Notes: a model not told the origin generated them from the letters alone. Shown: positions 9,101-20,645, numbered from the stretch's first letter. The stretch is 35,061 nt of DNA from a virus (IMGVR_UViG_2654587570_000013:1-35061), one strand, 5' to 3'. A program made the numbers and translations.

Positions 9101-9925
9101 GTTTGAATGCAAATCCATCTGGCGTACTTGTTTACGTACTTTCAGGAATGAATCAACGTTGATGTTTTCAATTGGTACGGATAAGCCATATTTTTCATTT
9201 GTTAGGTAGTGGAAAATCTGGTCCACGCCGTTAGTGCTTGCCTCAATAGCATTGGTTTCAAGGTTACGGATTTTTAAGCCCATAACATCGACCGCTACCT
9301 GGCTATTTGGTTGAAGGATATCAACACCAGCAGCCAAAGATTTGTCATCACGACGTAAAACAATACACATGGTCGCAATGCCGTTACCCTGATACCGATC
9401 ATCCCAATCAGCGCCCAAATGATGTTTAGCAAGATCTAATGCAGTGTTAGGATTTTTACCCGTGCGAAACTCGACTTCTAAAACTTTGCGGTATTCGTCT
9501 TTAATGTTTCCTTTATCGAGAATGCCATCACGAATTGTCATATTCTGGCTAATGAGAACGTTTTTATTATCGATGTGCAGTGCTTTAAAGTGATCGATCT
9601 CACCTTCGGCAATAGCAAAAATTTGTACCAGCTTGTTATTTTCACGCTGTGAAATTGCTTTGTAAACGCAGATTGCACCAGTTCGGGTAGTACCGAAAAG
9701 AACGGGTAAAACTGTCTTAGGATCGTTTGATGTTCCTAGTGTCACCGCATTATCTGGGCTTTGTACTTTCGGTGTTTTTGGTGCGCCTACAGTGGAAGCG
9801 ATCAAGGTCATTGCACCAGCAGCCATACCGATAGCGACTGCGGTCATAACAGAAAATGTTGCAGCAGCAGCCATCCCAGCAGACGCACCAGCAATAACCG
9901 CGCCTACTAATATTTCAAATCCCAT
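6179..9925 (-). CDS. central tail fibre / host specificity protein (lambda J-like) with I-like hydrophobic N-terminus
   Basis: 1248 aa; C-terminus (DDHPFDRQIVIPA ... IDMPAGHGAVT ... KKAATGISVS) closely resembles the lambda J receptor-binding end as I recall it; internal fibre-shaft repeats; N-terminal Gly/Ala-rich hydrophobic segment; start overlaps the upstream stop (TAATG). Confidence 0.85.
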   Translation of the reverse strand: MGFEILVGAVIAGASAGMAAAATFSVMTAVAIGMAAGAMTLIASTVGAPKTPKVQSPDNAVTLGTSNDPKTVLPVLFGTTRTGAICVYKAISQRENNKLVQIFAIAEGEIDHFKALHIDNKNVLISQNMTIRDGILDKGNIKDEYRKVLEVEFRTGKNPNTALDLAKHHLGADWDDRYQGNGIATMCIVLRRDDKSLAAGVDILQPNSQVAVDVMGLKIRNLETNAIEASTNGVDQIFHYLTNEKYGLSVPIENINVDSFLKVRKQVRQMDLHSNGACDPNASFKENLTSLMQTFGGVMFESFGRITLKLDAPDIVKHTFNEDNIMMGKVSLKTGGTNGYFNTINAMYQEPSIDYSEQMLRYPADAENDATIRQDGRIIAKDIEYRFVKSKAQIDKLASVERNKSRITQVISFMTTDAFTAEVWDVISVTYDELKLNNSLWRITAIDRSIDSGIAGMMTITATEYNSQVYTDLNYAANPDNRPTGLPDSMTVQKPTNFRIKATGETIHGKNVTLTWDVPEDFNRYGFQIDYKVSGSPNWIKLGQTSQQIFNINALAKDRSYDYRVCAFGIIARSEWVELVNQNPTVTYELPTPVIRIKNQGSSPGTFEGNDLIIEWENQQQLDVMINGEANKFSDLFEAYIIKVTNKAGKSIQYRTRDPESWTYTLDMNQFNGLSRELTVEVSVKGYNNSESAPARLVAINPQHKPMKGFSARGGFNTAFVSWADDVEHDYAGSIIQYATDNTFSDARAVTTNSVSHTSFDLADGDYYIRGAHYDIFGMDDAVWSEPYFMQMKSTISWDDQDKEALEDLIGLQDRLDETIADAIAQAGANADAKIDAMHKQITTETGQTVQASADTLKSLIATSEQASATKIDQVKAELKGDITKEVSASATTLKQAIATSEAASASKIDQVRVEMDGKIAGVNQEADVKIDALKGTINSKYNLAVNADGRVAGIHMSATNDPAEPTRIIFTADKIAVAPQDGSEVCPFGIEDNKVYLDNAMIRNAAIGTAQISDASITTAKIGTAQINGAHIQHAQIGTGHIIDGSIDNAKIGNYIQSYNWNGNDGWYIGKDGTCHFRHANIRGHLVADSGEMNNVTINSSCRILGMLDANQVRGDFVKVVGRSFPHRQPNWPDGAITVRVEDDHPFDRQIVIPAIHHNGSVRRGESSDHWDTCRLIVKKNGGVLYDRTATSGCMYSGVIDMPAGHGAVTMTFEVYCKGVNNYNPSAYISDLTVMVTKKAATGISVS

Positions 9926-10344
9926 TATTCACCCCCGAATCTATAAACTTGTTCATAGTCAATGTCTGAAACAGGAATGGTCATCCAGATACCATCTTCT
10001 TCAACGAGGCCATAACCGGAATAATGAGGAACTACGGAATAATATTTGCGGTTTCCTAATTTGTGGGCTGTGACCAGTAAGTCGCCGTCCTGTAAATCAT
10101 CAGTGACTAATTTGAAATGTTTCTTAATTGGTTGAAGGATATTTGTGTATCCGCTTAATTCTTTGCAGATTTTCAAGCCTTCTTCTTTAGTTGAATATTT
10201 TTTATAAAGAGAATTATATAGGTCAGTACCAGCGAGAATATCGATGATCTTACATGCAATTATATTGCAATCATTCTCGCCTTGAACGAACTCCTGACCT
10301 ATTAAAGAATTGATGTAATCGGTGATAAGCCTAGTTTTTAGCAT
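9925..10344 (-). CDS. tail tip assembly protein (lambda K-like, NlpC/P60-type Cys/His motif)
   Basis: Start placed at MLKTRL, which has a GGAGGT SD; the ORF track extends to 10500 and would overlap the upstream gene by 110 nt. ENDC...H...H pattern; sits between the L-like and J-like genes. Confidence 0.55.
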   Translation of the reverse strand: MLKTRLITDYINSLIGQEFVQGENDCNIIACKIIDILAGTDLYNSLYKKYSTKEEGLKICKELSGYTNILQPIKKHFKLVTDDLQDGDLLVTAHKLGNRKYYSVVPHYSGYGLVEEDGIWMTIPVSDIDYEQVYRFGGE

Positions 10345-10390
10345 GTTGAATACCTCCATGCAGTTATTTACTAGGCTTAGGGAGAAGGGA

Positions 10391-11044
10391 TTATTTCTTC
10401 GATGAATGCCACTTGCTTTCGCTATTCCAGCGACCCGTCCTTGAGAAGAATAGATCGTTCTCGTTTCCAACATAGGAACGGTGGATACCATCGGAAGCAT
10501 GACTACGAGCGTTTTTATCTAGAACTTCCCAGATACTATTAAGCTGAAATTCTGATTCGTTTTTACACTCTTCATCTTCATGTTCGATGTTAATACCGAT
10601 GGAATCGACTACCCCACGGAAAACAGGGTAAGTAGTTTCAACCTTGCCCGTGTTGGGGTTAAGGAAAACCATCTCGATTTTCACATCAGATTTATCGAAT
10701 TGCTTGTTACGAATCAGGGTAATGTATTCTTCGCGAACGTTAGAAACAGTTACGTTGATCCCGTTGTTGTTGATCTCCTTCTCTTCGGTATTCGATGAGA
10801 TTTGAAGAAAGTCACCCGTTGCAAGATACGTAAAACCGTTATAGTCCAAATCGAAGTACCCATCTGTAAGCCGTAGAACGTCTCCTGACGCGGTTATTAC
10901 TTCGATAATGTGAAACATCGATCCAGTGGAAAAAAGCTGCGGTAGAGTCAATCTAGACACATTCTGCCCTGTCTGGTCGTTGTAGACCTCGATGAAGTCC
11001 AGATTAGTGCATAGTTTGCTGAATGATTCCTGAATAGTTGCCAT
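10391..11044 (-). CDS. minor tail protein (lambda L-like position)
   Basis: 217 aa; position between the M-like and K-like genes; start overlaps the upstream stop (TAATG). Confidence 0.5.
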   Translation of the reverse strand: MATIQESFSKLCTNLDFIEVYNDQTGQNVSRLTLPQLFSTGSMFHIIEVITASGDVLRLTDGYFDLDYNGFTYLATGDFLQISSNTEEKEINNNGINVTVSNVREEYITLIRNKQFDKSDVKIEMVFLNPNTGKVETTYPVFRGVVDSIGINIEHEDEECKNESEFQLNSIWEVLDKNARSHASDGIHRSYVGNENDLFFSRTGRWNSESKWHSSKK

Positions 11045-11654: not shown

Positions 11655-14084
11655 TTACATCTTACGACGCTGTGCGTCTTCTACCGCCTGAGCAACTAAC
11701 TTAGCGTGACGTTTGATAGCATCCATGACCATCTTGTCTGAGCTATTAACGTTGCCGTTAATGTTCAAAGGCGCATTAACTTCAATCGGCTGAGAGTTAC
11801 CACCACCTGATTTTTGAGCAGCAAGGAAGTCTTTCAAATCGCCGTTAGTACGCTGATCAACTACTCGTTCACCCTTATCAAGCAACCATGTACCCTCACG
11901 CGGGATGTTATCGATACCATCATGAGCCATACCGCTAACGTTAGTAGACTTGATGTTTGCGATGTTCCCCATGTTCTGAGAAACAGCCAATGCAGCAGCA
12001 GCGATCTTTTGTCCTGTGGTGACGTTGGTCGGATCGTTCCATGCATCGGTAGCAGCCGTCCACATGTTCACCGTCGCTTGTCCGATAGAGAATGCTTTAT
12101 GAGCATTGAAAGCCATCTGCATAGCTTTAGTGTTTTCCTGCCCGAAGAGAGTCATTGCAGCAGCAAAACCGCCATACATATCATCGGCTATTGACTGGCG
12201 AGCATCAGCATATTTCTTTTCAATTGCAGCCATCCGTTTTTGATGGTTTTCATTGAGTTTTTCTAATGCTTCCATCCGTTTAGCCGGATCATTAATACCG
12301 TCAATCTTGAGTTTATCGGTCTTATAATCTTGTTCAGCATCCGATTTCTCTTTATCGATTGCATTAAATTTAGCAAACGGATTATTTGAGTCTTGATAAT
12401 CATAACCACTAGTTAATTGATTGGTTTTATAACCATCCATTCCCTGTAAAGAATTTTCAATCTGAGAATAGTTTTGCTCGGTATCGTTCACACGACGCAT
12501 ATATTCTTCGTAGGAGATAGCTTTACCATCAAGTAACCGTTTATGGCTTTCTAGCTCGTTGTCCCTGATTTGTTGCAATTGTGTTAAAGCATTCAGAGCA
12601 TCAATCGGATCAGCACCCAACATCATTTTATAAACGTTTTCAGTATTCTGATCGATTAGCGCCTGGCGTTTCGCGGCTGCGTCTTCCTGAGAGATTAAGC
12701 CCAGAGCTAACGCGTCGTTCACATCTTTTAAGCTGTTTTGCAACTGGCTATTTTGAGAAGTGATAGACGCTGCAACTTGCCCTTGCAATTTAACATCAAG
12801 TGCATTCAGTCGCTTGATTGCATCCTCGCGTGCTTTCTGTGCTTTTTCTGCGGCTTCCTTAGCCTTTTTAGCTGCCTCTTCCGCTTTCTTGCGTGCTTCT
12901 TCTTCGGCTTTCTTCTCATTACCAGACTTACCCAATGATTCTGGTCTTACTGGTTTATTTGGTATAGTCAAATCACGGTTAGGATCTGCCTTGCGGGTTA
13001 GATGTTCCCCGTTATCGACAACAATCAGAGAGCCATTTTTCTTATAAGAATCACCAAAACGTTTCTTAAATCCTTCAACATCAAAGCCAGCAGTACGAGG
13101 ATCGACACCAGCACCACGGATCGCGGCCTTTTCCCAATCTGCCAGATTATTCCAACGCTTTTCTTTATTGTACTTGTCAATAATTTTTTGAGCGTCTTTA
13201 TGGTTGGCGTTAAGAATACCGCCAGTTGCGGTCTTGCCTTCTTTATTCAGTCGATCTAATGCCCTGAATAGAGAACTCTTTTCCCAATCAATATTAAACC
13301 AGTCAAATAACCAGTTTAAACTATCAACCAGCGGACCAGAAATGGTCATACCGACACCTTTCAGGTTATTTTCCAGCTTATTGATATTTTGAGAAAATTT
13401 ATCATATTTTTTAGCGTTTTCTTCGGTGACGTTAACAGATTGATTCTGAATAGCGATCATCGCCTCTTGAGCAGTATTATATTTCTCAAGCTGGCTGGTC
13501 ATATGGCTTGAATCACTGGCTAAAGATTCCATCATGAACTTGATTTCAGCCATTGATTTTCCGGCTTTCTTCATGTCATAGAACACTTGGATCGCCGCTT
13601 TCATACCACCTTGCGGATCAGTCATGAAGTGAGCATAGTTTTCTAACTTAAGGCCAACCGATTCTAAGTCATCGGCAATACCGCCACCGTTAGCCCATGC
13701 ATCACCCATTTTATCTAAGGTGTCTTTGTTGATATCACCAAATTTTTCAACTGTTAGGCCAGTACCAGAAAATTCCTTTTCCAGTCTTTGAAGGGATTCA
13801 ATCGAGAGTCCGGTCGCCTTAGATACTTCTGAATATTGTTTAACGTATTCCGCGCCAGCTTTAGCGGCTGCAACCACTGCGGTCGCAACTAAGCCGATAC
13901 CACCAGCAGCTAAACCAGCAGAGCCAGCAATACCACGAAGAGATCCAGTCAGACCAGACAAGCCACCACCAAAATCAATATTACTTGCCTTTTCAGACAA
14001 ATCATCGAGCAGGTCAGCGGCTTCACTAGTGCTTCTCTTTAGCCCTTTATTATCCCCTTCTATTGTTACTATATGTTTTGTCAT
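11655..14084 (-). CDS. tail tape measure protein
   Basis: 809 aa; Ala/Gly-rich N-terminal hydrophobic stretch, long alpha-helical/coiled-coil body; canonical position after the chaperone pair and before the tip genes. Confidence 0.85.
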   Translation of the reverse strand: MTKHIVTIEGDNKGLKRSTSEAADLLDDLSEKASNIDFGGGLSGLTGSLRGIAGSAGLAAGGIGLVATAVVAAAKAGAEYVKQYSEVSKATGLSIESLQRLEKEFSGTGLTVEKFGDINKDTLDKMGDAWANGGGIADDLESVGLKLENYAHFMTDPQGGMKAAIQVFYDMKKAGKSMAEIKFMMESLASDSSHMTSQLEKYNTAQEAMIAIQNQSVNVTEENAKKYDKFSQNINKLENNLKGVGMTISGPLVDSLNWLFDWFNIDWEKSSLFRALDRLNKEGKTATGGILNANHKDAQKIIDKYNKEKRWNNLADWEKAAIRGAGVDPRTAGFDVEGFKKRFGDSYKKNGSLIVVDNGEHLTRKADPNRDLTIPNKPVRPESLGKSGNEKKAEEEARKKAEEAAKKAKEAAEKAQKAREDAIKRLNALDVKLQGQVAASITSQNSQLQNSLKDVNDALALGLISQEDAAAKRQALIDQNTENVYKMMLGADPIDALNALTQLQQIRDNELESHKRLLDGKAISYEEYMRRVNDTEQNYSQIENSLQGMDGYKTNQLTSGYDYQDSNNPFAKFNAIDKEKSDAEQDYKTDKLKIDGINDPAKRMEALEKLNENHQKRMAAIEKKYADARQSIADDMYGGFAAAMTLFGQENTKAMQMAFNAHKAFSIGQATVNMWTAATDAWNDPTNVTTGQKIAAAALAVSQNMGNIANIKSTNVSGMAHDGIDNIPREGTWLLDKGERVVDQRTNGDLKDFLAAQKSGGGNSQPIEVNAPLNINGNVNSSDKMVMDAIKRHAKLVAQAVEDAQRRKM

Positions 14085-14095
14085 AAATTACCCCT

Positions 14096-14482
14096 TTAAC
14101 CGCTTCTGAGTTTCTCAAGCAAAGATGGATCAAACATGTTCAGCATTGTCGCTTTACGTTCTTCTTCTTTCTTGCGTACAAGTTCTTCCTGTTCTTCTTT
14201 AGTTTTAAAGAGTTTTTCTTCTCTAATTAATTGGAATTGGCTAGGCTTGAGTTTCTTTGCAGTTTCACGAGTCATTCCTTGCGACGTCATATACATGGAA
14301 TACTGCAACATCGCATTCTGCATATCATGAAACGCGGGGCTTTGTGGTTCTAAGTAGGTGTCGAAAATGTATAATTTCCAAAATAGAGTGATTGGCATAT
14401 TATCCATTTCATCTTTACTAAGCCCCGATCTCATCATTTGCCGGAAATAGAAATTCAGAAGCGGGTTTACTTTACCTCGTTT
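14096..14482 (-). CDS. tail assembly chaperone extension (lambda T-like; candidate -1 frameshift product with upstream gene)
   Basis: Reading frame is open from 14482 to 14096; it overlaps the 3' end of the G-like ORF in the -1 frame and has no well-placed independent start. Confidence 0.4.
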   Translation of the reverse strand, partial: KRGKVNPLLNFYFRQMMRSGLSKDEMDNMPITLFWKLYIFDTYLEPQSPAFHDMQNAMLQYSMYMTSQGMTRETAKKLKPSQFQLIREEKLFKTKEEQEELVRKKEEERKATMLNMFDPSLLEKLRSG

Positions 14483-14775
14483 TCAATTACCGCCGGATCT
14501 TGCATCAATGAGGCTTGAGCAACCAAACCGATTAATTCACTGCGGACGTTAGTATACAGTGCCTTAACTTGTTCAATAGATTCAAATACTGGTTTACCGT
14601 CTTCATCTTCAATACAACGAAGAATCGAACGTTCGTCACGGTCTTCTTTATCAGTATTAAAAACATGTTCGTTAAATTCTTTTACTGACATAGGGCGAGC
14701 ATAGAAAGTGAATCCACCGATGGTCAGAGATTCGCGTTTCGGAGAGAGTGCGGCTAACATTTCGTTAATATTCAT
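14467..14775 (-). CDS. tail assembly chaperone (lambda G-like position)
   Basis: 102-aa acidic ORF between the tail tube gene and the tape measure gene. Confidence 0.5.
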   Translation of the reverse strand: MNINEMLAALSPKRESLTIGGFTFYARPMSVKEFNEHVFNTDKEDRDERSILRCIEDEDGKPVFESIEQVKALYTNVRSELIGLVAQASLMQDPAVIENEVK

Positions 14776-14830
14776 TCTTGTTTCCTCTTAAGTTAATTAG
14801 ATATGTTTATTTAGAATTGGAAACAAAAAA

Positions 14831-14848
14831 GCCACCCCGAAGGATGGC
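14831..14848 (-). terminator. hairpin terminator/attenuator after the tail tube gene
   Basis: On the minus strand GCCAUCC-UUCG-GGGUGGC (UUCG tetraloop) followed by a T-run. Confidence 0.45.
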
Positions 14849-14857
14849 TAGATAATA

Positions 14858-15328
14858 TTAGACTTTCTGGAAAACAGCTTGTTTGACCGGAGCACCATCT
14901 ACTACAAAGGTGAAGGTACGGCCTACTACAGCATCCTCACCACCAGTCATGGTAGTTTTAGACAGGAAGCCGTTATAAGCGATATGTACACCAGATTTTT
15001 TCGTAGCATCGATGTAGTAAGCAATTTTAAGCTGTACGCGCTTACCGTCTTCGGTTGCTTTAATCAGTTTTTCGTGTACTTCGTTACCCGGCATGTAGTT
15101 GATCGAAAGTTCGATATCCGGTACAGACATACGACCAACCAGCTTACGGTTATACGGACCACCGAAGTTAGGAACATCGATAGTAGAACGTTCTACACCA
15201 GTTTCCGGGAAAGCCGCACATTCTGGAATTTCCAGATAGCTTTCACTGTCAAGATCGGTGTTAGTTACTTCTTCATGCAGAAACAGACCAACGAGGCCAC
15301 CAGAAAAAATATCAAATTTAGTAGTCAT
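14858..15328 (-). CDS. major tail tube protein (lambda V N-domain-like)
   Basis: 156 aa; INYMPGNEVHEKLIKATEDGKRVQLKIAY resembles the conserved lambda V segment as recalled (WMPGE...ALLAWFNEGD...YKIRF); very strong optimal-codon bias typical of an abundant structural protein; terminator hairpin downstream. Confidence 0.6.
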   Translation of the reverse strand: MTTKFDIFSGGLVGLFLHEEVTNTDLDSESYLEIPECAAFPETGVERSTIDVPNFGGPYNRKLVGRMSVPDIELSINYMPGNEVHEKLIKATEDGKRVQLKIAYYIDATKKSGVHIAYNGFLSKTTMTGGEDAVVGRTFTFVVDGAPVKQAVFQKV

Positions 15329-15382: not shown

Positions 15383-15685
15383 TTAGCGGTTGCTCAAACG
15401 TCTATAACGAAGATGAGCGATCCCCCTATTTGTGCTAACGGTAATTACCGCCCCTTGCGGTGCAATACAAGAATGAATCTGTCCCCAATCATGACCCTTA
15501 TGGCTTCCAGAAACACACAAACCATGAATAAGCAATTCAGAGTCACCACCGCCACCACCGGAAGAATGAGCACAGAATGAAATAGTCCCGAAAGCGTCGG
15601 CTGTCCAACCGTTAGGAATATCAAACCATCCCTGATTTGCTTTACCCGCCCTATTCCCCAAAGCGCCATCTACCCAAAATGCCAT
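15383..15685 (-). CDS. small Gly/Trp/His-rich protein, paralogue 1 of 3 (unknown function)
   Basis: 100 aa; shares WFDIPNGW, a Gly-rich segment, D-SEL--GL and a C-terminal aromatic-basic tail with the two adjacent ORFs. Confidence 0.55.
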   Translation of the reverse strand: MAFWVDGALGNRAGKANQGWFDIPNGWTADAFGTISFCAHSSGGGGGDSELLIHGLCVSGSHKGHDWGQIHSCIAPQGAVITVSTNRGIAHLRYRRLSNR

Positions 15686-15990
15686 TAGTGCATTCTCCTG
15701 AATTTAAAATAATGCAAGCTACCTTTACCCAATGTAAAGCTAACGGTAGCACCAGCGCCAACTAAAGAACTAGCGCCCCAACTCCCGGCATCAGCCGCAT
15801 GATGACCCGATTCAATCAATCCATTTACGACCAATTCAGAATCAAGATCACCAGCACCGTTAATGGCTTCCATATGAGCAAAAACAATTCCGCATGAATC
15901 AGTAACCCAGCCGTTGGGGATATCAAAATATCCACCATTAGCCCAAATACTAATAGCGTTTGACATTCTTTGATTTATCCATCCAGCCAT
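15685..15990 (-). CDS. small Gly/Trp/His-rich protein, paralogue 2 of 3
   Basis: 101 aa; YFDIPNGW motif; its stop overlaps the start of paralogue 1 (TAATG). Confidence 0.55.
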   Translation of the reverse strand: MAGWINQRMSNAISIWANGGYFDIPNGWVTDSCGIVFAHMEAINGAGDLDSELVVNGLIESGHHAADAGSWGASSLVGAGATVSFTLGKGSLHYFKFRRMH

Positions 15991-15992
15991 AA

Positions 15993-16289
15993 TTAAAACT
16001 CCATGAATTTAAAATATTCAACACCACCTTCACCCCCTAAACCAAAGGAGACGGTGCAGCCAGCAGGAACAAACGAATTTATAGTAGATCCCCAATTGGT
16101 CCCACCACGACGACGAGCAACGGTCAAACCATCTACGTTAATATGTGCATCAGACCACCCACCACCAGCATTATGACGCATTACAGCGACACCAGCACGA
16201 GCAGTACCATAGCCGTTAGGAATATCAAATACATGCCATTTTAAAGCATCGATTTTAGTATTAATTTCGCTACTTACCCAATATCCCAT
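15993..16289 (-). CDS. small Gly/Trp/His-rich protein, paralogue 3 of 3
   Basis: 98 aa; VFDIPNGY motif; 2-nt gap to paralogue 2. Confidence 0.55.
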   Translation of the reverse strand: MGYWVSSEINTKIDALKWHVFDIPNGYGTARAGVAVMRHNAGGGWSDAHINVDGLTVARRRGGTNWGSTINSFVPAGCTVSFGLGGEGGVEYFKFMEF

Positions 16290-16327
16290 ATAAGAATCCT
16301 TAGCGGAGATTTCTCCCCGCTTTCCAA

Positions 16328-19300
16328 TTACCCTAATTTAGCTTCAATTGCAGCAAGACGTTCACGAAGAAGTTTATTTTCTTCGCTCATTTCTTGGACC
16401 GCTTTAATTAAAAGCGCGTTCACTGCGGAGTTTGAAATTGTTAAAATTTCTTCTGGGTTATCAAAACCACCAATTTTTGCGGTTTTAACAGCTTCCGGTA
16501 ATACCTCTTGTAAATCCTGTGCGATAATACCAATCTCATGACCTATAACTTCTCGGTCATTAAGAGATTTAACTTTATCGTAGGTTTTAACTTTGAGTTT
16601 ATTTACCTTATCCACCGCATTTTCTTCGTAATCTTCAACATTAATTTTCAGACGACGATCGGAACGAATATAAACATCGTTAAAGTTACCATTACCAGGA
16701 CAGTAAAAAGTACCATCATGATGGAACTCGAATACAGCTTGAGGGTGACCAGCCGCTGGCGATGCCTCCGCAGATCCAACACGAATAATTGCTTGCCCCC
16801 AATTTTGAGGAACACGACGCATACCAAAATCGACGGCAGTTGTATACCCTTGATTGGTGATTAAACTTCTTCCTTTGATAATCGGATAATAACAGTCCGG
16901 TGAAACATAGCCATGATCGACAAATATTGGCGCTTCTAAGCCCCATTGATCACCCCAACCTCCAGATTGGCTAGCAGTCCAACGTTCACCATGAACATAG
17001 AATCGAACGTTATTGACATGAGTCATTTCGACACCTTTTGGACTTAGCGCGATATCCCCCGCGTTTGTAATATTGATAGCAGCATTAGTAGCATAGCTAT
17101 AGAACGCTAATCCATTATCAGCACCACCTTTACCGATATACCAGTTGTTATTATCAGCACAAGTACCCAACAAATATATCGACGAATCGCCCGTTTCGGC
17201 ATTCATGATGATTGCGTCAGAACCACGATTAACTTTAAGTTTCCCGAAGAAGGTGTTTTTAATGGTATTATCACCCAATCGTTCAAATTCGGCTAAAAAT
17301 CCTTTTGAGTCACGAAGGCTTAAAACGTTATTTCGACCTGTATTGCTTGCCCCCCAATGGACGAGTTCCATATAGTCCATAGATTGACGAGAACCAGCTT
17401 TAAAGAAAAGATTGTCCTCAAGACGAGTGCTACCATCAATTCCAAGATGCAAACAGCGTGCGGTCGCTGTGCCACCTAGATCTAATCCACCACCAGCAAA
17501 ATCATAACTAAATGGTCTACGGCTATTCCACCCACCGAAAGAATCACCGTGATCTGTGGAAAGAATATGGAAGCTAGTTCCATCATTACGGAACATCAAA
17601 CCATAATTACCACCTTTAACAGCCAAACGAGCATTTTCAGATAATGCAACTTCGCTATTCATTACAATTTTCTGGCCTTTACCACCAGTAATATGTAATT
17701 CACCATCTTCAATCAGGTTTATCGAGTTTTGACCGTTATCATTCCACCAAATAAAATCTTTGGTTGTTCCATCACCGAAGCCAAACCAGCCATTACGAAC
17801 ATCTTGTCCAGTGCGATAATCCATGAAATTAAAATGGCTTGATTCGTTTGGTCCTCGACGAATATCAATACCAGAATTTCCACCAACACCACCATCCAAT
17901 GTTAATCTCTTGACATGTAACCCGGTTGTTGCTGTCAGCAATAATTCCTGATTTGTATCTTCGTATCCAGTAGCAAGACGATATGCGTTATCATCAACTG
18001 TCTCATGCCAGATAGTGGCAGGAGCAGAACTACGGAAGCGACGCAACATTTTCTTAGCATTTGTTTGCTGTTCGTTCAAATGCTCAATGTCATATTGGCC
18101 TTGATGGTTTCCAGCAAAATTTAACGTTCCACGGTTGCTAAAGTTATTGAACGATGAAATGTTAAGAGCATCAAAAATTTCATCTGCAACAGGTTTTTCA
18201 CCGCCCAGGTATTCAGGAGTATCCAACAGGTTTAAAGAAACACCACCGGAAGAAACTTGATATTCTGCTAAAACAAATCCTGTATGTGCACCATAGTAAG
18301 CGTAAAGATCATAATTGTCGCCATCGGTTGGAATAGCGCAAAAATGTTGTTCATAATGCCAAATAGTATAATACGCATTGAATACAACACCTTTCGGGCT
18401 ATTGTTGCCGCATCGAATCACCAATTCGATAATATTGGCTTGTCCATTCATCCCGACGTTATAACCGTTACCACCAACTAAGCGGATCTTAGCACTACGA
18501 CCGTGTTGCTGTGGCATTGTCAAAGTGCCTAGTTTAAACCAACCACCCTCGATCCCAAAATTAAGCGTCTTCTGGAACAGTCGGTCAATTTCTGCTTTCG
18601 AATATGCGCCAATTTCGGCAGGAGTAGGTTTATCACCTTCATGATACATGCGGTGAGAATATGCCAAATGACCCAATTCATCATAGCCGTATGTTCTTAC
18701 CGTATGAACCGGATTAGACCCATAAGTGAACTCAAAGCCACGAGCATGATTAACACCAGATGGATGCGGAACATGCAAGATCATTGCAATATGACCCGCC
18801 AGGTCATTCATGCGGAATGCACCAAAGTAATCAAGATTACGCGCATTTGGATCATCAAAATAGTTTGCGGTCTTAGACAGCAAATAACCATCAGTATAAG
18901 TGTTTACGTGTTTTTTGATGTACTTGCCATCAGCAGATCCATCGGCTGCATCAATACGGCTTTCTAAGCGTGCCAATTCAGAATCAGTGTAAGACTTGTT
19001 ATTGTCAACTTTGCTATGAATTGCTGTATTTTTGGCTTCAACATCACGGGTTAATGCTGCGACGTTATCCGCTGCCTCTTGCTTATTGGCTGCAATCACA
19101 CCAGTAAGGTTATTGTAGGTGTCAGTTAACTGATTTTCCGCATAGACTTTATTTGCTGCGATAGTGCGGTCAGTTTCTGTCTTAATCAGATCAACTTTGT
19201 CATTGATTGCTTTGTCATTACTTGCGATTGTCGCGTCGGTACGGGATTTAATATCATCAACTTTTTTATTGATGCGGGTATCCAGTTCCTGGGTTGCTAC

Positions 19301-19738
19301 AGCAGCCGCATTTTTATTAGCGTTGATGGTATCCGACAATTCAGCTTTAACACCAGCAAGGTCGGAAGCAGCTTTATTTTTATTGGCCTCGATTGTCGCG
19401 TCGGTTTCGCGTTTAATTACATCAACTTTATTGTTAATTTCTGCGTGATTTGCTGCGATGGTTGCATCAGTAGTTTGTTTAATTTCATCTACTTTAGCGT
19501 GAATATTGCGGTCATTTACTGCAATTGTGCTATCCAGTTCTTGTTTGTTAGCATCAACTTTAGATTCTAGTGCCGCGTGAGTTTCAGGAGAAACAGAGAT
19601 TTGAACTACTTCATGATCTCGGTCTTTGGTAAAAATAACATGGTCTTTAAGGTTGATTGCTACCTCACCGACCTGTAATTGTTCCGGCGTTGGTTTTTTG
19701 CCAGAAACATTTGTTCGTTTAAATTGGATCGACTGCAT
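16328..19738 (-). CDS. tail fibre/tailspike with C-terminal intramolecular chaperone (peptidase S74-type) domain
   Basis: 1136 aa; N-terminal array of roughly 22-aa shaft repeats (KVDxIKxxTDATIxAN); C-terminal ~110 aa has the S-DxRxK autoproteolysis signature (YIRS/DRRLK) and a terminal coiled coil, as in T5 L-shaped fibre and K1F endosialidase chaperone domains. Confidence 0.85.
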   Translation of the reverse strand: MQSIQFKRTNVSGKKPTPEQLQVGEVAINLKDHVIFTKDRDHEVVQISVSPETHAALESKVDANKQELDSTIAVNDRNIHAKVDEIKQTTDATIAANHAEINNKVDVIKRETDATIEANKNKAASDLAGVKAELSDTINANKNAAAVATQELDTRINKKVDDIKSRTDATIASNDKAINDKVDLIKTETDRTIAANKVYAENQLTDTYNNLTGVIAANKQEAADNVAALTRDVEAKNTAIHSKVDNNKSYTDSELARLESRIDAADGSADGKYIKKHVNTYTDGYLLSKTANYFDDPNARNLDYFGAFRMNDLAGHIAMILHVPHPSGVNHARGFEFTYGSNPVHTVRTYGYDELGHLAYSHRMYHEGDKPTPAEIGAYSKAEIDRLFQKTLNFGIEGGWFKLGTLTMPQQHGRSAKIRLVGGNGYNVGMNGQANIIELVIRCGNNSPKGVVFNAYYTIWHYEQHFCAIPTDGDNYDLYAYYGAHTGFVLAEYQVSSGGVSLNLLDTPEYLGGEKPVADEIFDALNISSFNNFSNRGTLNFAGNHQGQYDIEHLNEQQTNAKKMLRRFRSSAPATIWHETVDDNAYRLATGYEDTNQELLLTATTGLHVKRLTLDGGVGGNSGIDIRRGPNESSHFNFMDYRTGQDVRNGWFGFGDGTTKDFIWWNDNGQNSINLIEDGELHITGGKGQKIVMNSEVALSENARLAVKGGNYGLMFRNDGTSFHILSTDHGDSFGGWNSRRPFSYDFAGGGLDLGGTATARCLHLGIDGSTRLEDNLFFKAGSRQSMDYMELVHWGASNTGRNNVLSLRDSKGFLAEFERLGDNTIKNTFFGKLKVNRGSDAIIMNAETGDSSIYLLGTCADNNNWYIGKGGADNGLAFYSYATNAAINITNAGDIALSPKGVEMTHVNNVRFYVHGERWTASQSGGWGDQWGLEAPIFVDHGYVSPDCYYPIIKGRSLITNQGYTTAVDFGMRRVPQNWGQAIIRVGSAEASPAAGHPQAVFEFHHDGTFYCPGNGNFNDVYIRSDRRLKINVEDYEENAVDKVNKLKVKTYDKVKSLNDREVIGHEIGIIAQDLQEVLPEAVKTAKIGGFDNPEEILTISNSAVNALLIKAVQEMSEENKLLRERLAAIEAKLG

Positions 19739-19767
19739 CGAATCACCTCACTATAAAACAGGAATAA

Positions 19768-19785
19768 GGGAGGCGTTAACCTCCC
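19768..19785 (-). terminator. hairpin (attenuator) between V-like gene and fibre gene
   Basis: GGGAGG-cgttaa-CCTCCC stem-loop; flanking sequence only moderately T-rich. Confidence 0.3.
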
Positions 19786-19811
19786 GCGTCATGTTTTATT
19801 TAGAGAAGCAA

Positions 19812-20645
19812 TCAGTATTCCCCGAAGTCGATCCGGTCATGGATAGAAACGGCTTCAATCTCGGCTGGTGTCGGTTTTTCTTCTGTGGAATACACTTTCA
19901 CCCATCCAGAATTACCGTCTTTCTGGACTGTGCGAACTCGTAAACGTGGTGCGCCGGAAGCGGTGCAAGTTAATTGCCATCCACCATCTTCATTAGGTTG
20001 AACGTGAATTAGTGAAGTATCAGCACTAAATGGATTAGATACGCTCGATCCCTGATAAGTTACGAAACGGTTTCCGGCTAATGCTTCGCTATCAATCGGA
20101 CCTATGAATGGGCTAACGCCTGAACCTACGCCATAATCCCCTTGTCGCAGAATTTTTCCCTCGGTCGCGATACCCCTTGCAAGAATCCCGCCATCTGGTT
20201 CAAGTTTAAATTCCAGTGTTACAGCTTTGTTATCTGCGCCACGGGTTTTATGTGATGTGACGTAAGCATCGAATATACAAAAGTACCCTGTGTTAGCAGC
20301 ACTATAGCCAGAGTTCACAACATAGAACATACGGAAGCGTAAAGGTGTTTTATCCTCTACCGCTTTCATCAACATTGCTTGATGTTCGTCATCCAGAACA
20401 CGGTTTAACGTGAGTGTTGTCGGTTCCAGTTTACGATAACCAGCAAGTTTCCCCGTAGCGTCCTGGTCATACTCTTCTAACGTCTGGATCTCTGTGGATT
20501 CGGTTATCGTCGGAAATGCTGCGATGTTCTCGATAGGACTAAAGCTAGGATCGAAAAAGTCCGGCTGGTTATCCACCATAGTAGACACGGAGACTTCAAC
20601 ATGCGACCCCGTGAAAATGTCTAAGTTATCTTGTGTAATATTCAT
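19812..20645 (-). CDS. tail tube-fold protein with C-terminal extra domain (lambda V-like major tail protein or tail terminator)
   Basis: 277 aa; TLTLNRVLDDEHQAMLMKAVEDKTPLRFRMF resembles the same V-like segment; C-terminal ~100 aa beta-rich domain carrying a KPTPAEI motif also present in the fibre. Confidence 0.5.
   Translation of the reverse strand: MNITQDNLDIFTGSHVEVSVSTMVDNQPDFFDPSFSPIENIAAFPTITESTEIQTLEEYDQDATGKLAGYRKLEPTTLTLNRVLDDEHQAMLMKAVEDKTPLRFRMFYVVNSGYSAANTGYFCIFDAYVTSHKTRGADNKAVTLEFKLEPDGGILARGIATEGKILRQGDYGVGSGVSPFIGPIDSEALAGNRFVTYQGSSVSNPFSADTSLIHVQPNEDGGWQLTCTASGAPRLRVRTVQKDGNSGWVKVYSTEEKPTPAEIEAVSIHDRIDFGEY

What the first reader, a model, noticed from the sequence alone, without database searches (positions are those of the whole stretch)
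14437..14485. Candidate G/T-type programmed -1 frameshift without a canonical slippery heptamer
The T-like frame is open from 14482 and overlaps the last 5 codons of the G-like ORF in the -1 frame. The overlap on the minus strand reads AAAACGAGGTAAAGTAA. There is no textbook X-XXY-YYZ site; the closest is G-GUA-AAG directly before the UAA stop. Synteny argues strongly for a G-T fusion, so the shift mechanism may be unusual.
Basis: partly seen in the sequence, partly recalled or inferred. Interest (0 to 1): 0.4.

Follow-up and report, generated by a model that had tools for sequence, protein, structure and literature searches.

The report
Unannotated tail-chaperone frameshift, degenerate slip site
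An E. coli prophage very probably makes its two tail-assembly chaperones (G and a G-T fusion) by a programmed -1 ribosomal frameshift at G_GUA_AAG, a near-miss of the textbook slippery heptamer; the mechanism is known, but databases do not annotate it in this phage family.

Summary
On the minus strand a 102-codon G-like gene (14775..14467) ends ...GAG GTA AAG TAA. The -1 frame is open from 14482 to 14096, just before the tape-measure gene. There is no X_XXY_YYZ heptamer.

About 100 related loci, down to 24% protein identity, keep the same arrangement: T always in the -1 frame and an in-frame A_AAG at the homologous junction. The codon before it varies: GUA, GCA, GAA, UUA or AAA. Two arrangements are canonical (U_UUA_AAG, A_AAA_AAG).

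The 11 codons between the G stop and the first ATG evolve as -1-frame coding sequence. That ATG has no Shine-Dalgarno and is not conserved in distant relatives. The base before the P-site codon is G far more often than composition predicts. No conserved RNA structure or upstream SD-like stimulator was found. The adjacent stop is common but dispensable.

Best reading: low-level -1 frameshifting on the degenerate heptamer G_GUA_AAG. tRNA-Lys re-pairs perfectly and tRNA-Val partly, giving a 226-aa G-T fusion. This site class is documented (A_AAG tetramers, NNA_AAG hexamers, G_GU-type heptamers).

It is a new, unannotated member of a known kind. No experimental evidence exists. Interest is modest.

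The parts
14858..15328 (-). Tail-tube-like gene (156 aa) immediately upstream of G
   Evidence: phrog_158 major tail protein, 3e-20. PF16461 Phage_TTP_12, 6e-5, below the Pfam cutoff. PGAP names the homologue 'phage tail tube protein'.
14825..14848 (-). Intrinsic-terminator-like hairpin (GCCATCC TTCG GGGTGGC followed by T6) between the tube gene and G
   Evidence: Read from the sequence. It is 95% identical over 39 nt to a feature annotated 'terminator' in T4-like phage G2494.
14783..14789 (-). Shine-Dalgarno of G (AAGAGGA)
   Evidence: Anti-SD duplex energy -6.0 kcal/mol, within the top 8% of background positions.
14467..14775 (-). G-like tail assembly chaperone ORF, 102 aa plus TAA
   Evidence: phrog_344 tail assembly chaperone, 1.3e-7. 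PF16459 Phage_TAC_13 matches 10 of 12 lineages, best 1e-5; the one score printed (member 1, 20.3 bits) is below the 28.8-bit cutoff. AF2 model pLDDT 82.5. Its best PDB match is the HK97 TAC 2OB9, TM 0.56. Best named viral matches are tail assembly chaperones.
14470..14476 (-). Proposed -1 shift site: degenerate heptamer G_GTA_AAG. The invariant core is the tetramer A_AAG at 14473..14470.
   Evidence: A_AAG is present at the homologous junction in all 15 site types across about 100 loci. The junction codon is AAG in 12 of 12 lineages, although AAG makes up only 26% of Lys codons elsewhere in these genes. Position 1 of the heptamer is G in 9 of 11 non-canonical site types, against 14% G at third codon positions.
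14467..14469 (-). Zero-frame UAA stop directly 3' of the shift site; possible pause or 3'-context element
   Evidence: A stop is kept as TAA, TAG or TGA in most enterobacterial relatives. It is replaced by AAA in an Edwardsiella locus and a Salmonella locus that keep G_GTA_AAG.
14438..14470 (-). Linker VNPLLNFYFRQ, read in the -1 frame. It has no start codon and is reachable only by frameshifting.
   Evidence: Variable sites by -1-frame codon position are 3/2/9. Window vs L026: 4 nt differences, 0 aa differences. Window vs L023: 7 nt, 1 aa.
14096..14470 (-). T-like segment in the -1 frame: 124 codons plus stop. The fusion G(1-102)+T is 226 aa.
   Evidence: Translation. PF06223 Phage_tail_T, 4e-4, below the Pfam cutoff. 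Codon-position pattern of variation in the T body is 10/6/21.
14432..14437 (-). ATG ATG, annotated by PGAP and other gene callers as the start of a separate T ORF; probably internal Met-Met
   Evidence: No SD: -1.1 and -1.7 kcal/mol, close to the background median. The Met is absent in DCP80, L070, L073 and L076. Called starts of homologues are inconsistent, giving products of 73-123 aa.
11655..14084 (-). Tape measure protein gene (809 aa) immediately downstream of T
   Evidence: phrog_13674 tail length tape measure protein, 5e-67.

Best explanation
This is the G/GT tail-assembly-chaperone pair of a siphovirus-type E. coli prophage, expressed by programmed -1 ribosomal frameshifting.

Proposed events:
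- Most ribosomes translate G (102 aa) and terminate at UAA (14469..14467).
- A small fraction, probably below or around a few per cent, slips back one base on G_GUA_AAG (14476..14470).
- tRNA-Lys(UUU) moves from AAG to AAA, a perfect and preferred pairing.
- tRNA-Val(cmo5UAC) moves from GUA to GGU. It keeps the first-position pair and a tolerated U:U wobble, and has one central mismatch.

By analogy with lambda gpG/gpGT, the G part would bind the tape measure protein and the T part would recruit tail tube protein.

No RNA hairpin or upstream SD-like stimulator seems to be involved. The U of the adjacent stop codon, the slow decoding of that stop, or both may raise the efficiency.

Shown here: the anatomy, conservation of the site, coding constraint on the linker, absence of a start signal for T, and the TAC fold of G.

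Inferred: that the shift happens, its efficiency, which tRNAs move, and the function of the T part.
For: 1. Gene order is tube protein, G, T, tape measure, distal tail protein.
2. The G model has the TAC fold: top PDB hit is HK97 TAC 2OB9 (prob 1.00, TM 0.56), and top named viral hits are TACs. Phage_TAC_13 matches 10 of 12 lineages and Phage_tail_T matches 5 of 12.
3. T is in the -1 frame in every relative, from 98% down to 24% identity. The overlap ranges from 10 nt (L079) to 109 nt (L098) and always contains an in-frame A_AAG.
4. Site types seen at the aligned junction:
   - GAG GTA AAG TAA/TAG/TGA/AAA
   - TCG GTA AAG TAA
   - GAG GCA AAG TAA
   - CTG/TCG/ACG/ACA GAA AAG
   - TCA GTA AAG
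   - canonical AGT TTA AAG (phage DCP80)
   - canonical GAA AAA AAG (two lineages)
   The junction Lys is invariant in the 5-sequence protein alignment A1.
5. The junction codon is AAG in 12 of 12 lineages, against AAA 190: AAG 66 elsewhere in these genes.
6. The base before the P-site codon is G in 9 of 11 non-canonical site types, against 14% G at third positions. Glu at that place is always GAG. This points to selection for first-position re-pairing of the P-site tRNA.
7. The linker between the G stop and the first ATG shows third-position-biased variation in the -1 frame (3/2/9) and mostly synonymous changes. It contains no ATG, GTG or TTG.
8. The ATGs at 14437 and 14434 have no SD (-1.1 and -1.7 kcal/mol). 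All neighbouring genes score -5.7 to -8.4.
9. L082 changes TAA to TGA. That keeps both the zero-frame stop and the -1-frame Val (GTA to GTG).
10. Literature:
   - A_AAG is by far the best -1 tetramer in E. coli (PMC4066793).
   - NNA_AAG hexamers are used by IS1222 and occur in B. subtilis cdd. X_XX = G_GU is known from T7 gene 10 and G_GA from other viruses (PMC5009743).
   - dnaX variants with first-position mismatches still shift (PMC6787027).
Against: - There is no protein-level or reporter evidence.
- Tetramers without a stimulator are barely above background, and even the best V_VVA_AAG heptamers give only about 0.3% without a stimulator in a reporter (PMC4066793).
- No conserved stimulator was found. 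Downstream folds have z-scores of +0.3 to +1.0 and differ between relatives. The SD-like GGCGGT upstream is not conserved. The real efficiency could therefore be very low.
- The central G:A mismatch for tRNA-Val in the -1 frame is unfavourable.
- Two lineages (TCA GTA AAG and ACA GAA AAG) lack even the first-position match.
- Homology of the T part to lambda T is only sub-threshold. hhalign against lambda GT gave E = 0.13. The T model has low confidence, pLDDT 64.
- An ATG ATG lies 29 nt after the stop and is conserved within the enterobacterial clade.
Confidence: 0.75

Rival explanations
1. Same product, different slip event ('shifty stop'). Only the P-site tRNA-Lys slips, from AAG to AAA, while the A site holds the slowly decoded UAA. 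Val-tRNA then reads GUA in the -1 frame. tRNA-Val has already left the P site and plays no part.
For: - A stop (TAA, TAG or TGA) directly follows A_AAG in the window and in most enterobacterial relatives, and also in L036 and L079.
- Two lineages keep A_AAG without any P-site match: TCA GTA AAG and ACA GAA AAG.
- Single-tRNA slippage of E. coli tRNA-Lys on A_AAG is documented (PMC5009743, PMC4066793).
Against: - The Edwardsiella and Salmonella loci L098 and L101 keep G_GTA_AAG but have AAA in place of the stop.
- DCP80, L074 and L100 have stops 4 to 12 codons downstream.
- Enrichment of G at heptamer position 1, including exclusive use of the rarer GAG for Glu, is not explained by a Lys-only slip.
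- UAA is read by both release factors (general knowledge).
Confidence: 0.15
2. There is no frameshift. T is a separate protein started at ATG 14437 or 14434, as PGAP annotates it, perhaps by re-initiation of ribosomes that have just terminated G 29 nt upstream.
For: - An ATG ATG is present and conserved (MM or IM) in the enterobacterial clade.
- PGAP and other gene callers call it this way.
Against: - There is no SD.
- The 11 codons upstream of the ATG are conserved as protein in the -1 frame, with mostly synonymous change.
- The motif F-x-[FY]-R-x-x-[ML]-[RK]-x-G-L begins before the Met. The Met is missing in DCP80, L070, L073 and L076.
- The -1 frame reaches back into G in every lineage, and A_AAG is invariant.
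- Called starts of homologues are inconsistent.
Confidence: 0.07
3. The frame difference is an artefact, a pseudogene or a sequencing error. Alternatively the fusion arises from transcriptional slippage rather than ribosomal slippage.
For: None specific. A single-base indel would also fuse the frames.
Against: - The identical frame arrangement occurs in 52 complete E. coli genomes and about 100 other loci from several genera.
- No in-frame fused homologue of about 226 aa exists among 71 T-like and 38 G-like protein clusters.
- The A run is only 3 nt long, far too short for polymerase slippage (general knowledge).
Confidence: 0.03

Closest known systems
Phage lambda gpG/gpGT (G_GGA_AAG) and the conserved tail-assembly-chaperone frameshift of long-tailed dsDNA phages (Levin 1993; Xu, Hendrix & Duda 2004, 2013, 2014, as cited in PMC5009743)
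   Same: - Two overlapping ORFs lie between the tail tube gene and the tape measure gene, with the second in the -1 frame and lacking its own start.
- The shift site sits in the last codons of G and ends in A_AAG followed by U. Lambda reads GCG GGA AAG TGT.
- No RNA-structure stimulator is evident.
- G has the TAC fold.
   Different: - The P-site codon is GUA rather than GGA, so the heptamer is G_GUA_AAG and not X_XXY_YYZ.
- The zero-frame stop is immediately adjacent. In lambda it is 5 codons later.
- Sequence similarity to lambda G and T is marginal.
A_AAG tetramer and NNA_AAG hexamer -1 frameshift sites: IS3 (C_CAA_AAG context), IS1222 (G_CGA_AAG), B. subtilis cdd (A_CGA_AAG) (PMC5009743, PMC4066793, PMC6815119)
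   Same: - The only fully re-pairing tRNA is tRNA-Lys, moving from AAG to AAA.
- The upstream codon cannot re-pair fully.
- The host translation system is the same for IS3 (E. coli).
   Different: Those sites depend on a strong pseudoknot (IS3) or an upstream SD-like sequence (cdd) to exceed background. No such element was found here.
Degenerate heptamers with X_XX = G_GU, as in phage T7 gene 10A/10B (G_GUU_UUC) and cardioviruses (PMC5009743)
   Same: - The P-site tRNA-Val slips from GUN to GGU, with a mismatch at the middle position.
- The first base of the heptamer equals the first base of the P-site codon.
   Different: - The A-site part is A_AAG (Lys) rather than U_UUC/U (Phe).
- The gene function is different.
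Escherichia phage DCP80 (PQ671644), the nearest sequenced phage homologue
   Same: - Homologous G, T and tape measure genes, with about 33% identity over the G-T region.
- T is in the -1 frame and the slip Lys is at the aligned position.
   Different: - It uses the canonical T_TTA_AAG, and its stop is 10 codons downstream.
- It is not annotated as a frameshift either. T is called from an internal ATG.

Membership tests
Phage tail assembly chaperone G/GT -1 frameshift pair (lambda-type) | Two consecutive small ORFs located between the major tail (tube) gene and the tape measure gene | tested here: met
   The order is tube-like 15328..14858, G 14775..14467, T ..14096, tape measure 14084..11655, then distal tail protein.
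Phage tail assembly chaperone G/GT -1 frameshift pair (lambda-type) | The second ORF overlaps the end of the first in the -1 frame and lacks its own translation start signal | tested here: met
   The -1 frame is open from 14482. There is no ATG, GTG or TTG before 14437. The SD energies are -1.1 and -1.7 kcal/mol, against -5.7 to -8.4 for neighbouring genes. The arrangement is conserved in about 100 loci.
Phage tail assembly chaperone G/GT -1 frameshift pair (lambda-type) | A slippery sequence in the overlap, conserved among relatives | tested here: met
   A_AAG is invariant. The heptamer is G_GTA_AAG in the window clade and canonical in DCP80, L079 and L100.
Phage tail assembly chaperone G/GT -1 frameshift pair (lambda-type) | The first protein has the tail-assembly-chaperone fold or homology | tested here: met
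   Foldseek top PDB hit is HK97 TAC 2OB9 (E = 2e-3, prob 1.0, TM 0.56). Top BFVD hits are TACs. phrog_344 scores 1e-7. The Pfam TAC_13 matches are weak: best 1e-5, and the window protein scores 20.3-22.2 bits against the 28.8-bit gathering score.
Phage tail assembly chaperone G/GT -1 frameshift pair (lambda-type) | The C-terminal extension is homologous to lambda T (PF06223) | tested here: inconclusive
   PF06223 matches 5 of 12 lineages, best 4e-4; the window protein scores 19.6-21.2 bits against the 25.9-bit cutoff. hhalign against lambda GT gave E = 0.13. The T model has pLDDT 64, so no fold search was made.
Phage tail assembly chaperone G/GT -1 frameshift pair (lambda-type) | The GT fusion protein is produced at a low, fixed ratio to G and is required for tail assembly | not testable with these tools
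   This needs proteomics, reporter assays and genetics.
Canonical X_XXY_YYZ tandem-slippage heptamer | Positions 1-3 are identical and positions 4-6 are identical in the zero-frame register | tested here: not met
   Positions 1-3 are G, G, U; positions 4-6 are A, A, A. No other heptamer lies in the 16-nt overlap.
Z_ZZN tetramer / NNA_AAG hexamer -1 sites (IS3, IS1222, cdd) | An in-frame A_AAG decoded by tRNA-Lys(UUU), with a P-site codon that cannot re-pair fully | tested here: met
   GTA AAG is in the zero frame at 14475..14470.
Z_ZZN tetramer / NNA_AAG hexamer -1 sites (IS3, IS1222, cdd) | A flanking stimulator: a downstream pseudoknot or hairpin, or an SD-like sequence 6-17 nt upstream | tested here: not met
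   Downstream folds have z-scores of +0.28 to +1.04 in the window, and the structures differ in L023, L034 and L001. The upstream GGCGGT becomes GGCAGT, GGTAGT or GACAGT in close relatives.
'Shifty stop' frameshifting | A stop codon immediately 3' of the shift codon, conserved | tested here: inconclusive
   It is met in the window and most relatives (TAA, TAG or TGA). It is absent in L098, L101, L070, L073, L074, L100 and DCP80.

The most novel reading that the evidence does not exclude
In this phage family the working frameshift signal would be a minimal cassette, X_XNA_AAG plus a 3' U or stop codon, with no RNA structure and no SD-like element. It would reach a biologically sufficient GT level through tRNA-Lys slippage helped by termination pausing. 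The canonical heptamers seen in DCP80, L079 and L100 and the degenerate ones would then be functionally interchangeable states that drift into each other. That would make the family a natural mutational series for measuring how much P-site re-pairing and stop adjacency contribute to -1 frameshifting in vivo.
Probability: 0.25. Interest if true: 0.45.

Novelty: new member of a known kind. Interest (0 to 1): 0.3.

Why it matters
- **Annotation.** The prophage family occurs in about 1% of complete E. coli genomes, and relatives occur in Salmonella, Shigella, Proteus, Providencia and Edwardsiella. All records split G and T into two 'hypothetical' ORFs with inconsistent T starts. Many records name G 'cytochrome'. 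The G-T fusion is missing from protein databases.
- **Detection tools.** Programs that require X_XXY_YYZ would miss this site.
- **Recoding biology.** The family offers a natural series of P-site codons (GUA, GCA, GAA, UUA, AAA) and of stop positions around one invariant A_AAG, in the best-studied host. It could be used to calibrate how degenerate a functional -1 site may be when only a few per cent of shifting is needed.

It does not reveal a new mechanism.

Tried and rejected
- **Downstream stimulatory RNA structure.** I folded 67-129 nt after the site in the window and in L023, L034 and DCP80. z-scores ran from -1.05 to +1.04 and no common fold appeared. Rejected.
- **Upstream SD-like stimulator.** GGCGGT lies 12 nt upstream in the window but is not conserved. 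GAGG overlaps the site, which is too close for a -1 stimulator (from memory of dnaX and prfB spacing rules), and it is absent in the TCG GTA AAG lineages. Rejected as a conserved element.
- **Alternative slip at GAA_AAC (G_AAA_AC).** It is present only in the window clade and is absent in L023 and L034. Rejected.
- **Non-AUG start in the linker.** A CTG exists in the window only; it is TTA or TTG in relatives. Rejected.
- **Near-identical phage in GenBank.** None was found. The only hit was a 39-nt terminator match.
- **Structure of the T part.** The model has low confidence (pLDDT 64), so no fold search was run.
- **Profile comparison with lambda GT.** Not significant. A profile search of the PDB by sequence found nothing.
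- **Papers not held.** Licznar 2003 and Xu 2004 could not be read. The measured efficiency of GUA_AAG among NNA_AAG hexamers could therefore not be checked.
- **Literature search for GGUAAAG or GGTAAAG as a frameshift site.** Nothing relevant was found.

Full report
**1. What is in the sequence.**

All features are on the minus strand.

- A 156-aa tail-tube-like gene (15328..14858) is followed by a terminator-like hairpin (14848..14825).
- Next comes a 102-codon ORF (14775..14467) with a good Shine-Dalgarno. It ends GAA AAC GAG GTA AAG TAA.
- In the -1 frame there is a TGA at 14485..14483. After it the frame stays open for 128 codons, to 14098..14096.
- That is 11 nt before the ATG of an 809-aa tape measure gene (14084..11655).
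- The overlap is 16 nt, and the first ATG of the -1 frame is at 14437.
- There is no X_XXY_YYZ heptamer. The only shift-prone element is A_AAG inside G_GTA_AAG (14476..14470), directly before the stop.

Its quoted 17-mer includes one base of the -1-frame TGA.

It is also more than chance would give:

- Elsewhere in this window's genes the -1 frame has a stop about every 7 codons, and the longest open run is 77 codons.
- In-frame A_AAG occurs 9 times in 4508 codons.

**2. What the genes are.**

- The upstream gene matches major tail protein families. The downstream genes match tape measure and distal tail protein families.
- The 102-aa protein matches phrog_344 'tail assembly chaperone' at 1.3e-7. 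It also matches Pfam Phage_TAC_13 weakly.
- Across 12 divergent lineages, 10 hit Phage_TAC_13 and 5 hit Phage_tail_T in the second half. The scores printed for the window protein are below Pfam's cutoffs.
- An AlphaFold model of G, built on 33 homologues, has pLDDT 82.5.
- Its best PDB match is the crystal structure of the HK97 tail assembly chaperone, 2OB9, aligned over its full length with TM 0.56. Its best named viral matches are tail assembly chaperones.
- The T part could not be modelled with confidence. Its similarity to lambda T is not significant in a direct profile comparison.

The T assignment therefore rests on position, frame and sub-threshold Pfam and PHROG hits.

**3. Where it comes from.**

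- The window is a prophage of about 35 kb, found in 52 of 5426 complete E. coli genomes.
- In strain ETEC1703 it sits next to ycdY and the csg genes and carries a recombinase-family gene at its end.
- PGAP annotates G and T as two separate hypothetical proteins, with T starting at the ATG that corresponds to 14437. No slippage is annotated.
- In protein databases, G homologues from E. coli, Salmonella, Proteus and Edwardsiella are often named 'cytochrome'.
- T homologues are 'hypothetical', with called lengths from 73 to 123 aa. No fused protein of about 226 aa exists.
- The only related phage in GenBank is Escherichia phage DCP80, at about 33% identity.

**4. Comparative evidence for the frameshift.**

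I collected about 100 related loci from viral contigs, metagenomes, genomes and single look-ups.

In every one, T is in the -1 frame relative to G, and the overlap contains an in-frame A_AAG.

| Zero-frame site | Where seen |
|---|---|
| GAG GTA AAG TAA | 70 loci, including Salmonella and Proteus at about 65-75% identity |
| GAG GTA AAG TAG (then TAA) | L008, L043 |
| GAG GTA AAG TGA | L082 |
| GAG GTA AAG AAA | Edwardsiella L098, Salmonella L101 |
| TCG GTA AAG TAA | L023, L024, L034 and others |
| GAG GCA AAG TAA | L099 |
| CTG GAA AAG TAA | L036 group |
| TCG / CTG GAA AAG AAC | L070; L075, L096 |
| ACG / ACA GAA AAG AAA | L073; L076 group |
| TCA GTA AAG GAA | L074, L095 |
| AGT TTA AAG CCG (canonical U_UUA_AAG) | phage DCP80 |
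| GAA AAA AAG TAA / TCC (canonical A_AAA_AAG) | L079; L100 |

- The slip Lys is an invariant column in the 5-sequence fused-protein alignment A1. In the 12-lineage alignment A2 the junction falls within about two columns.
- That codon is AAG in 12 of 12 lineages, although Lys codons elsewhere in these genes are AAA 190: AAG 66.
- L082's TAA to TGA change keeps both the zero-frame stop and the -1-frame Val.

**5. Evidence that the stretch before the ATG is translated.**

- The 11 codons between the G stop and the ATG read VNPLLNFYFRQ in the -1 frame.
- They vary mainly at third positions: 3/2/9 variable sites by codon position.
- Against L026 there are 4 nucleotide changes and no amino-acid change. 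Against L023 there are 7 nucleotide changes and one amino-acid change. In the other two frames the same changes would alter 2 to 5 residues.
- The conserved motif F-x-[FY]-R-x-x-[ML]-[RK]-x-G-L starts before the Met. It is present in relatives that have no Met there: DCP80 has RLILRGL, and L070 and L076 have RAILRRGL.
- The ATGs at 14437 and 14434 have no Shine-Dalgarno (-1.1 and -1.7 kcal/mol, the background median). G, the tape measure gene and all neighbouring genes score -5.7 to -8.4.

This argues against independent initiation of T and against the annotated gene model.

**6. How the shift most likely works.**

*The A-site part.* The invariant element is A_AAG. In E. coli, A_AAG is by far the most shift-prone tetramer: 5.6% with the IS3 pseudoknot, but near background alone (PMC4066793). 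NNA_AAG hexamers are used naturally, for example by IS1222, and occur in B. subtilis cdd (PMC5009743).

*The P-site part.* In 9 of 11 non-canonical site types the base before the P-site codon is G and the P-site codon starts with G. G makes up only 14% of third codon positions in these genes. Glu at that place is always the rarer GAG.

- This suggests selection for re-pairing of the first position of the P-site tRNA, which means tandem slippage on a degenerate heptamer G_GNA_AAG.
- Such intermediates are documented: X_XX = G_GU in T7 gene 10 and G_GA in several RNA viruses (PMC5009743).
- dnaX variants with first-position mismatches still shift (PMC6787027).

*Stimulators.* I found no conserved downstream structure (z from +0.3 to +1.0 in the window, with different folds in relatives). 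I found no conserved upstream SD-like element.

*The stop.* The adjacent stop supplies a 3' U and possibly a pause. However, L098 and L101 keep G_GTA_AAG with AAA in place of the stop, and several lineages have the stop one to twelve codons away. So it is helpful at most, not essential.

*Context effects.* Sharma et al. report that the best V_VVA_AAG heptamers give about 0.3% without stimulators, and up to about 3.7% with a favourable 3' context (PMC4066793). From memory, not checked here, a 3' U is the most favourable base in E. coli (Bertrand et al. 2002). Lambda's site is also followed by U: GGGAAAG-T.

*Overall.* I therefore expect a low efficiency, from below 1% to a few per cent. That would fit the roughly 30:1 G:GT ratio known for lambda (PMC5009743).

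Tandem slippage and P-site-only slippage give the same protein...IENEVK-VNPLL..., 226 aa. They can be separated only by mutagenesis.

**7. Comparison with known systems and verdict.**

- Functionally and positionally this is a lambda-type G/GT chaperone pair.
- It fails the strict X_XXY_YYZ definition. It fits the documented classes of degenerate heptamers and A_AAG-based sites.
- It lacks the stimulators that the IS3 and cdd sites depend on.
- The specific heptamer G_GUA_AAG was not found in the searchable literature, and the frameshift is not annotated in any record seen.

It is a new, unannotated member of a known kind. It is well supported by comparative evidence and untested experimentally. 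Interest is modest. Its main value is for annotation, and as a natural series of site variants around one invariant A_AAG.

Noticed in passing
window 15383..20645 (minus strand): There are two tail-tube-like genes, both phrog_158: 20645..19812 (277 aa) and 15328..14858 (156 aa). Between them lies a T-even-type distal long-tail-fibre gene (19738..16328, 1136 aa) that is 94% identical at the nucleotide level over 2.2 kb to T4-like phage KFS-EC. So a myovirus fibre module sits inside a siphovirus-type tail operon.
   Followed up: partly
window 15383..16289 (minus strand): Three tandem, apparently paralogous ORFs of about 100 aa lie here (16289..15993, 15990..15685, 15685..15383), sharing a 'FDIPNGW/Y' motif. 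They have no PHROG match. Their DNA matches 'hypothetical protein' genes next to tail fibres in T4-like phages. In relatives L098 and L100 a gp38-like adhesin (PF05268) occupies this place instead.
   Followed up: partly
window 14825..14848 (minus strand): The terminator-like hairpin between the tube gene and G is 95% identical over 39 nt to a feature annotated 'terminator' in T4-like phage vB_EcoM_G2494.
   Followed up: no
homologues of window 14467..14775 (P0001, P0005-P0034): NCBI records name this tail assembly chaperone 'cytochrome' in E. coli, Salmonella, Proteus and Edwardsiella. This is almost certainly a propagated misannotation.
   Followed up: partly
L001 (Escherichia phage DCP80, PQ671644, 13211..16877): DCP80 (141 kb) is filed under Straboviridae/Tevenvirinae, yet it carries siphovirus-like tube, G, T and tape measure genes. 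It has an unannotated canonical T_TTA_AAG frameshift site, and its T is called from an internal ATG that truncates the conserved region.
   Followed up: partly
window 9925..11044 (minus strand); L035 24585..25355: ORFs 11044..10391 and 10500..9925 overlap by 110 nt in the window. In E. coli ETEC1703 a NUMOD3-domain (homing-endonuclease-like) gene lies between their homologues, and a GIY-YIG nuclease gene lies elsewhere in that prophage.
   Followed up: no
P0025 (E. coli, nr): One database protein reads ...ENEVKCKPASEFLFSANDAIGA after the junction Lys, which is a different frame. This suggests an indel or assembly error at the slippery site in that record.
   Followed up: no
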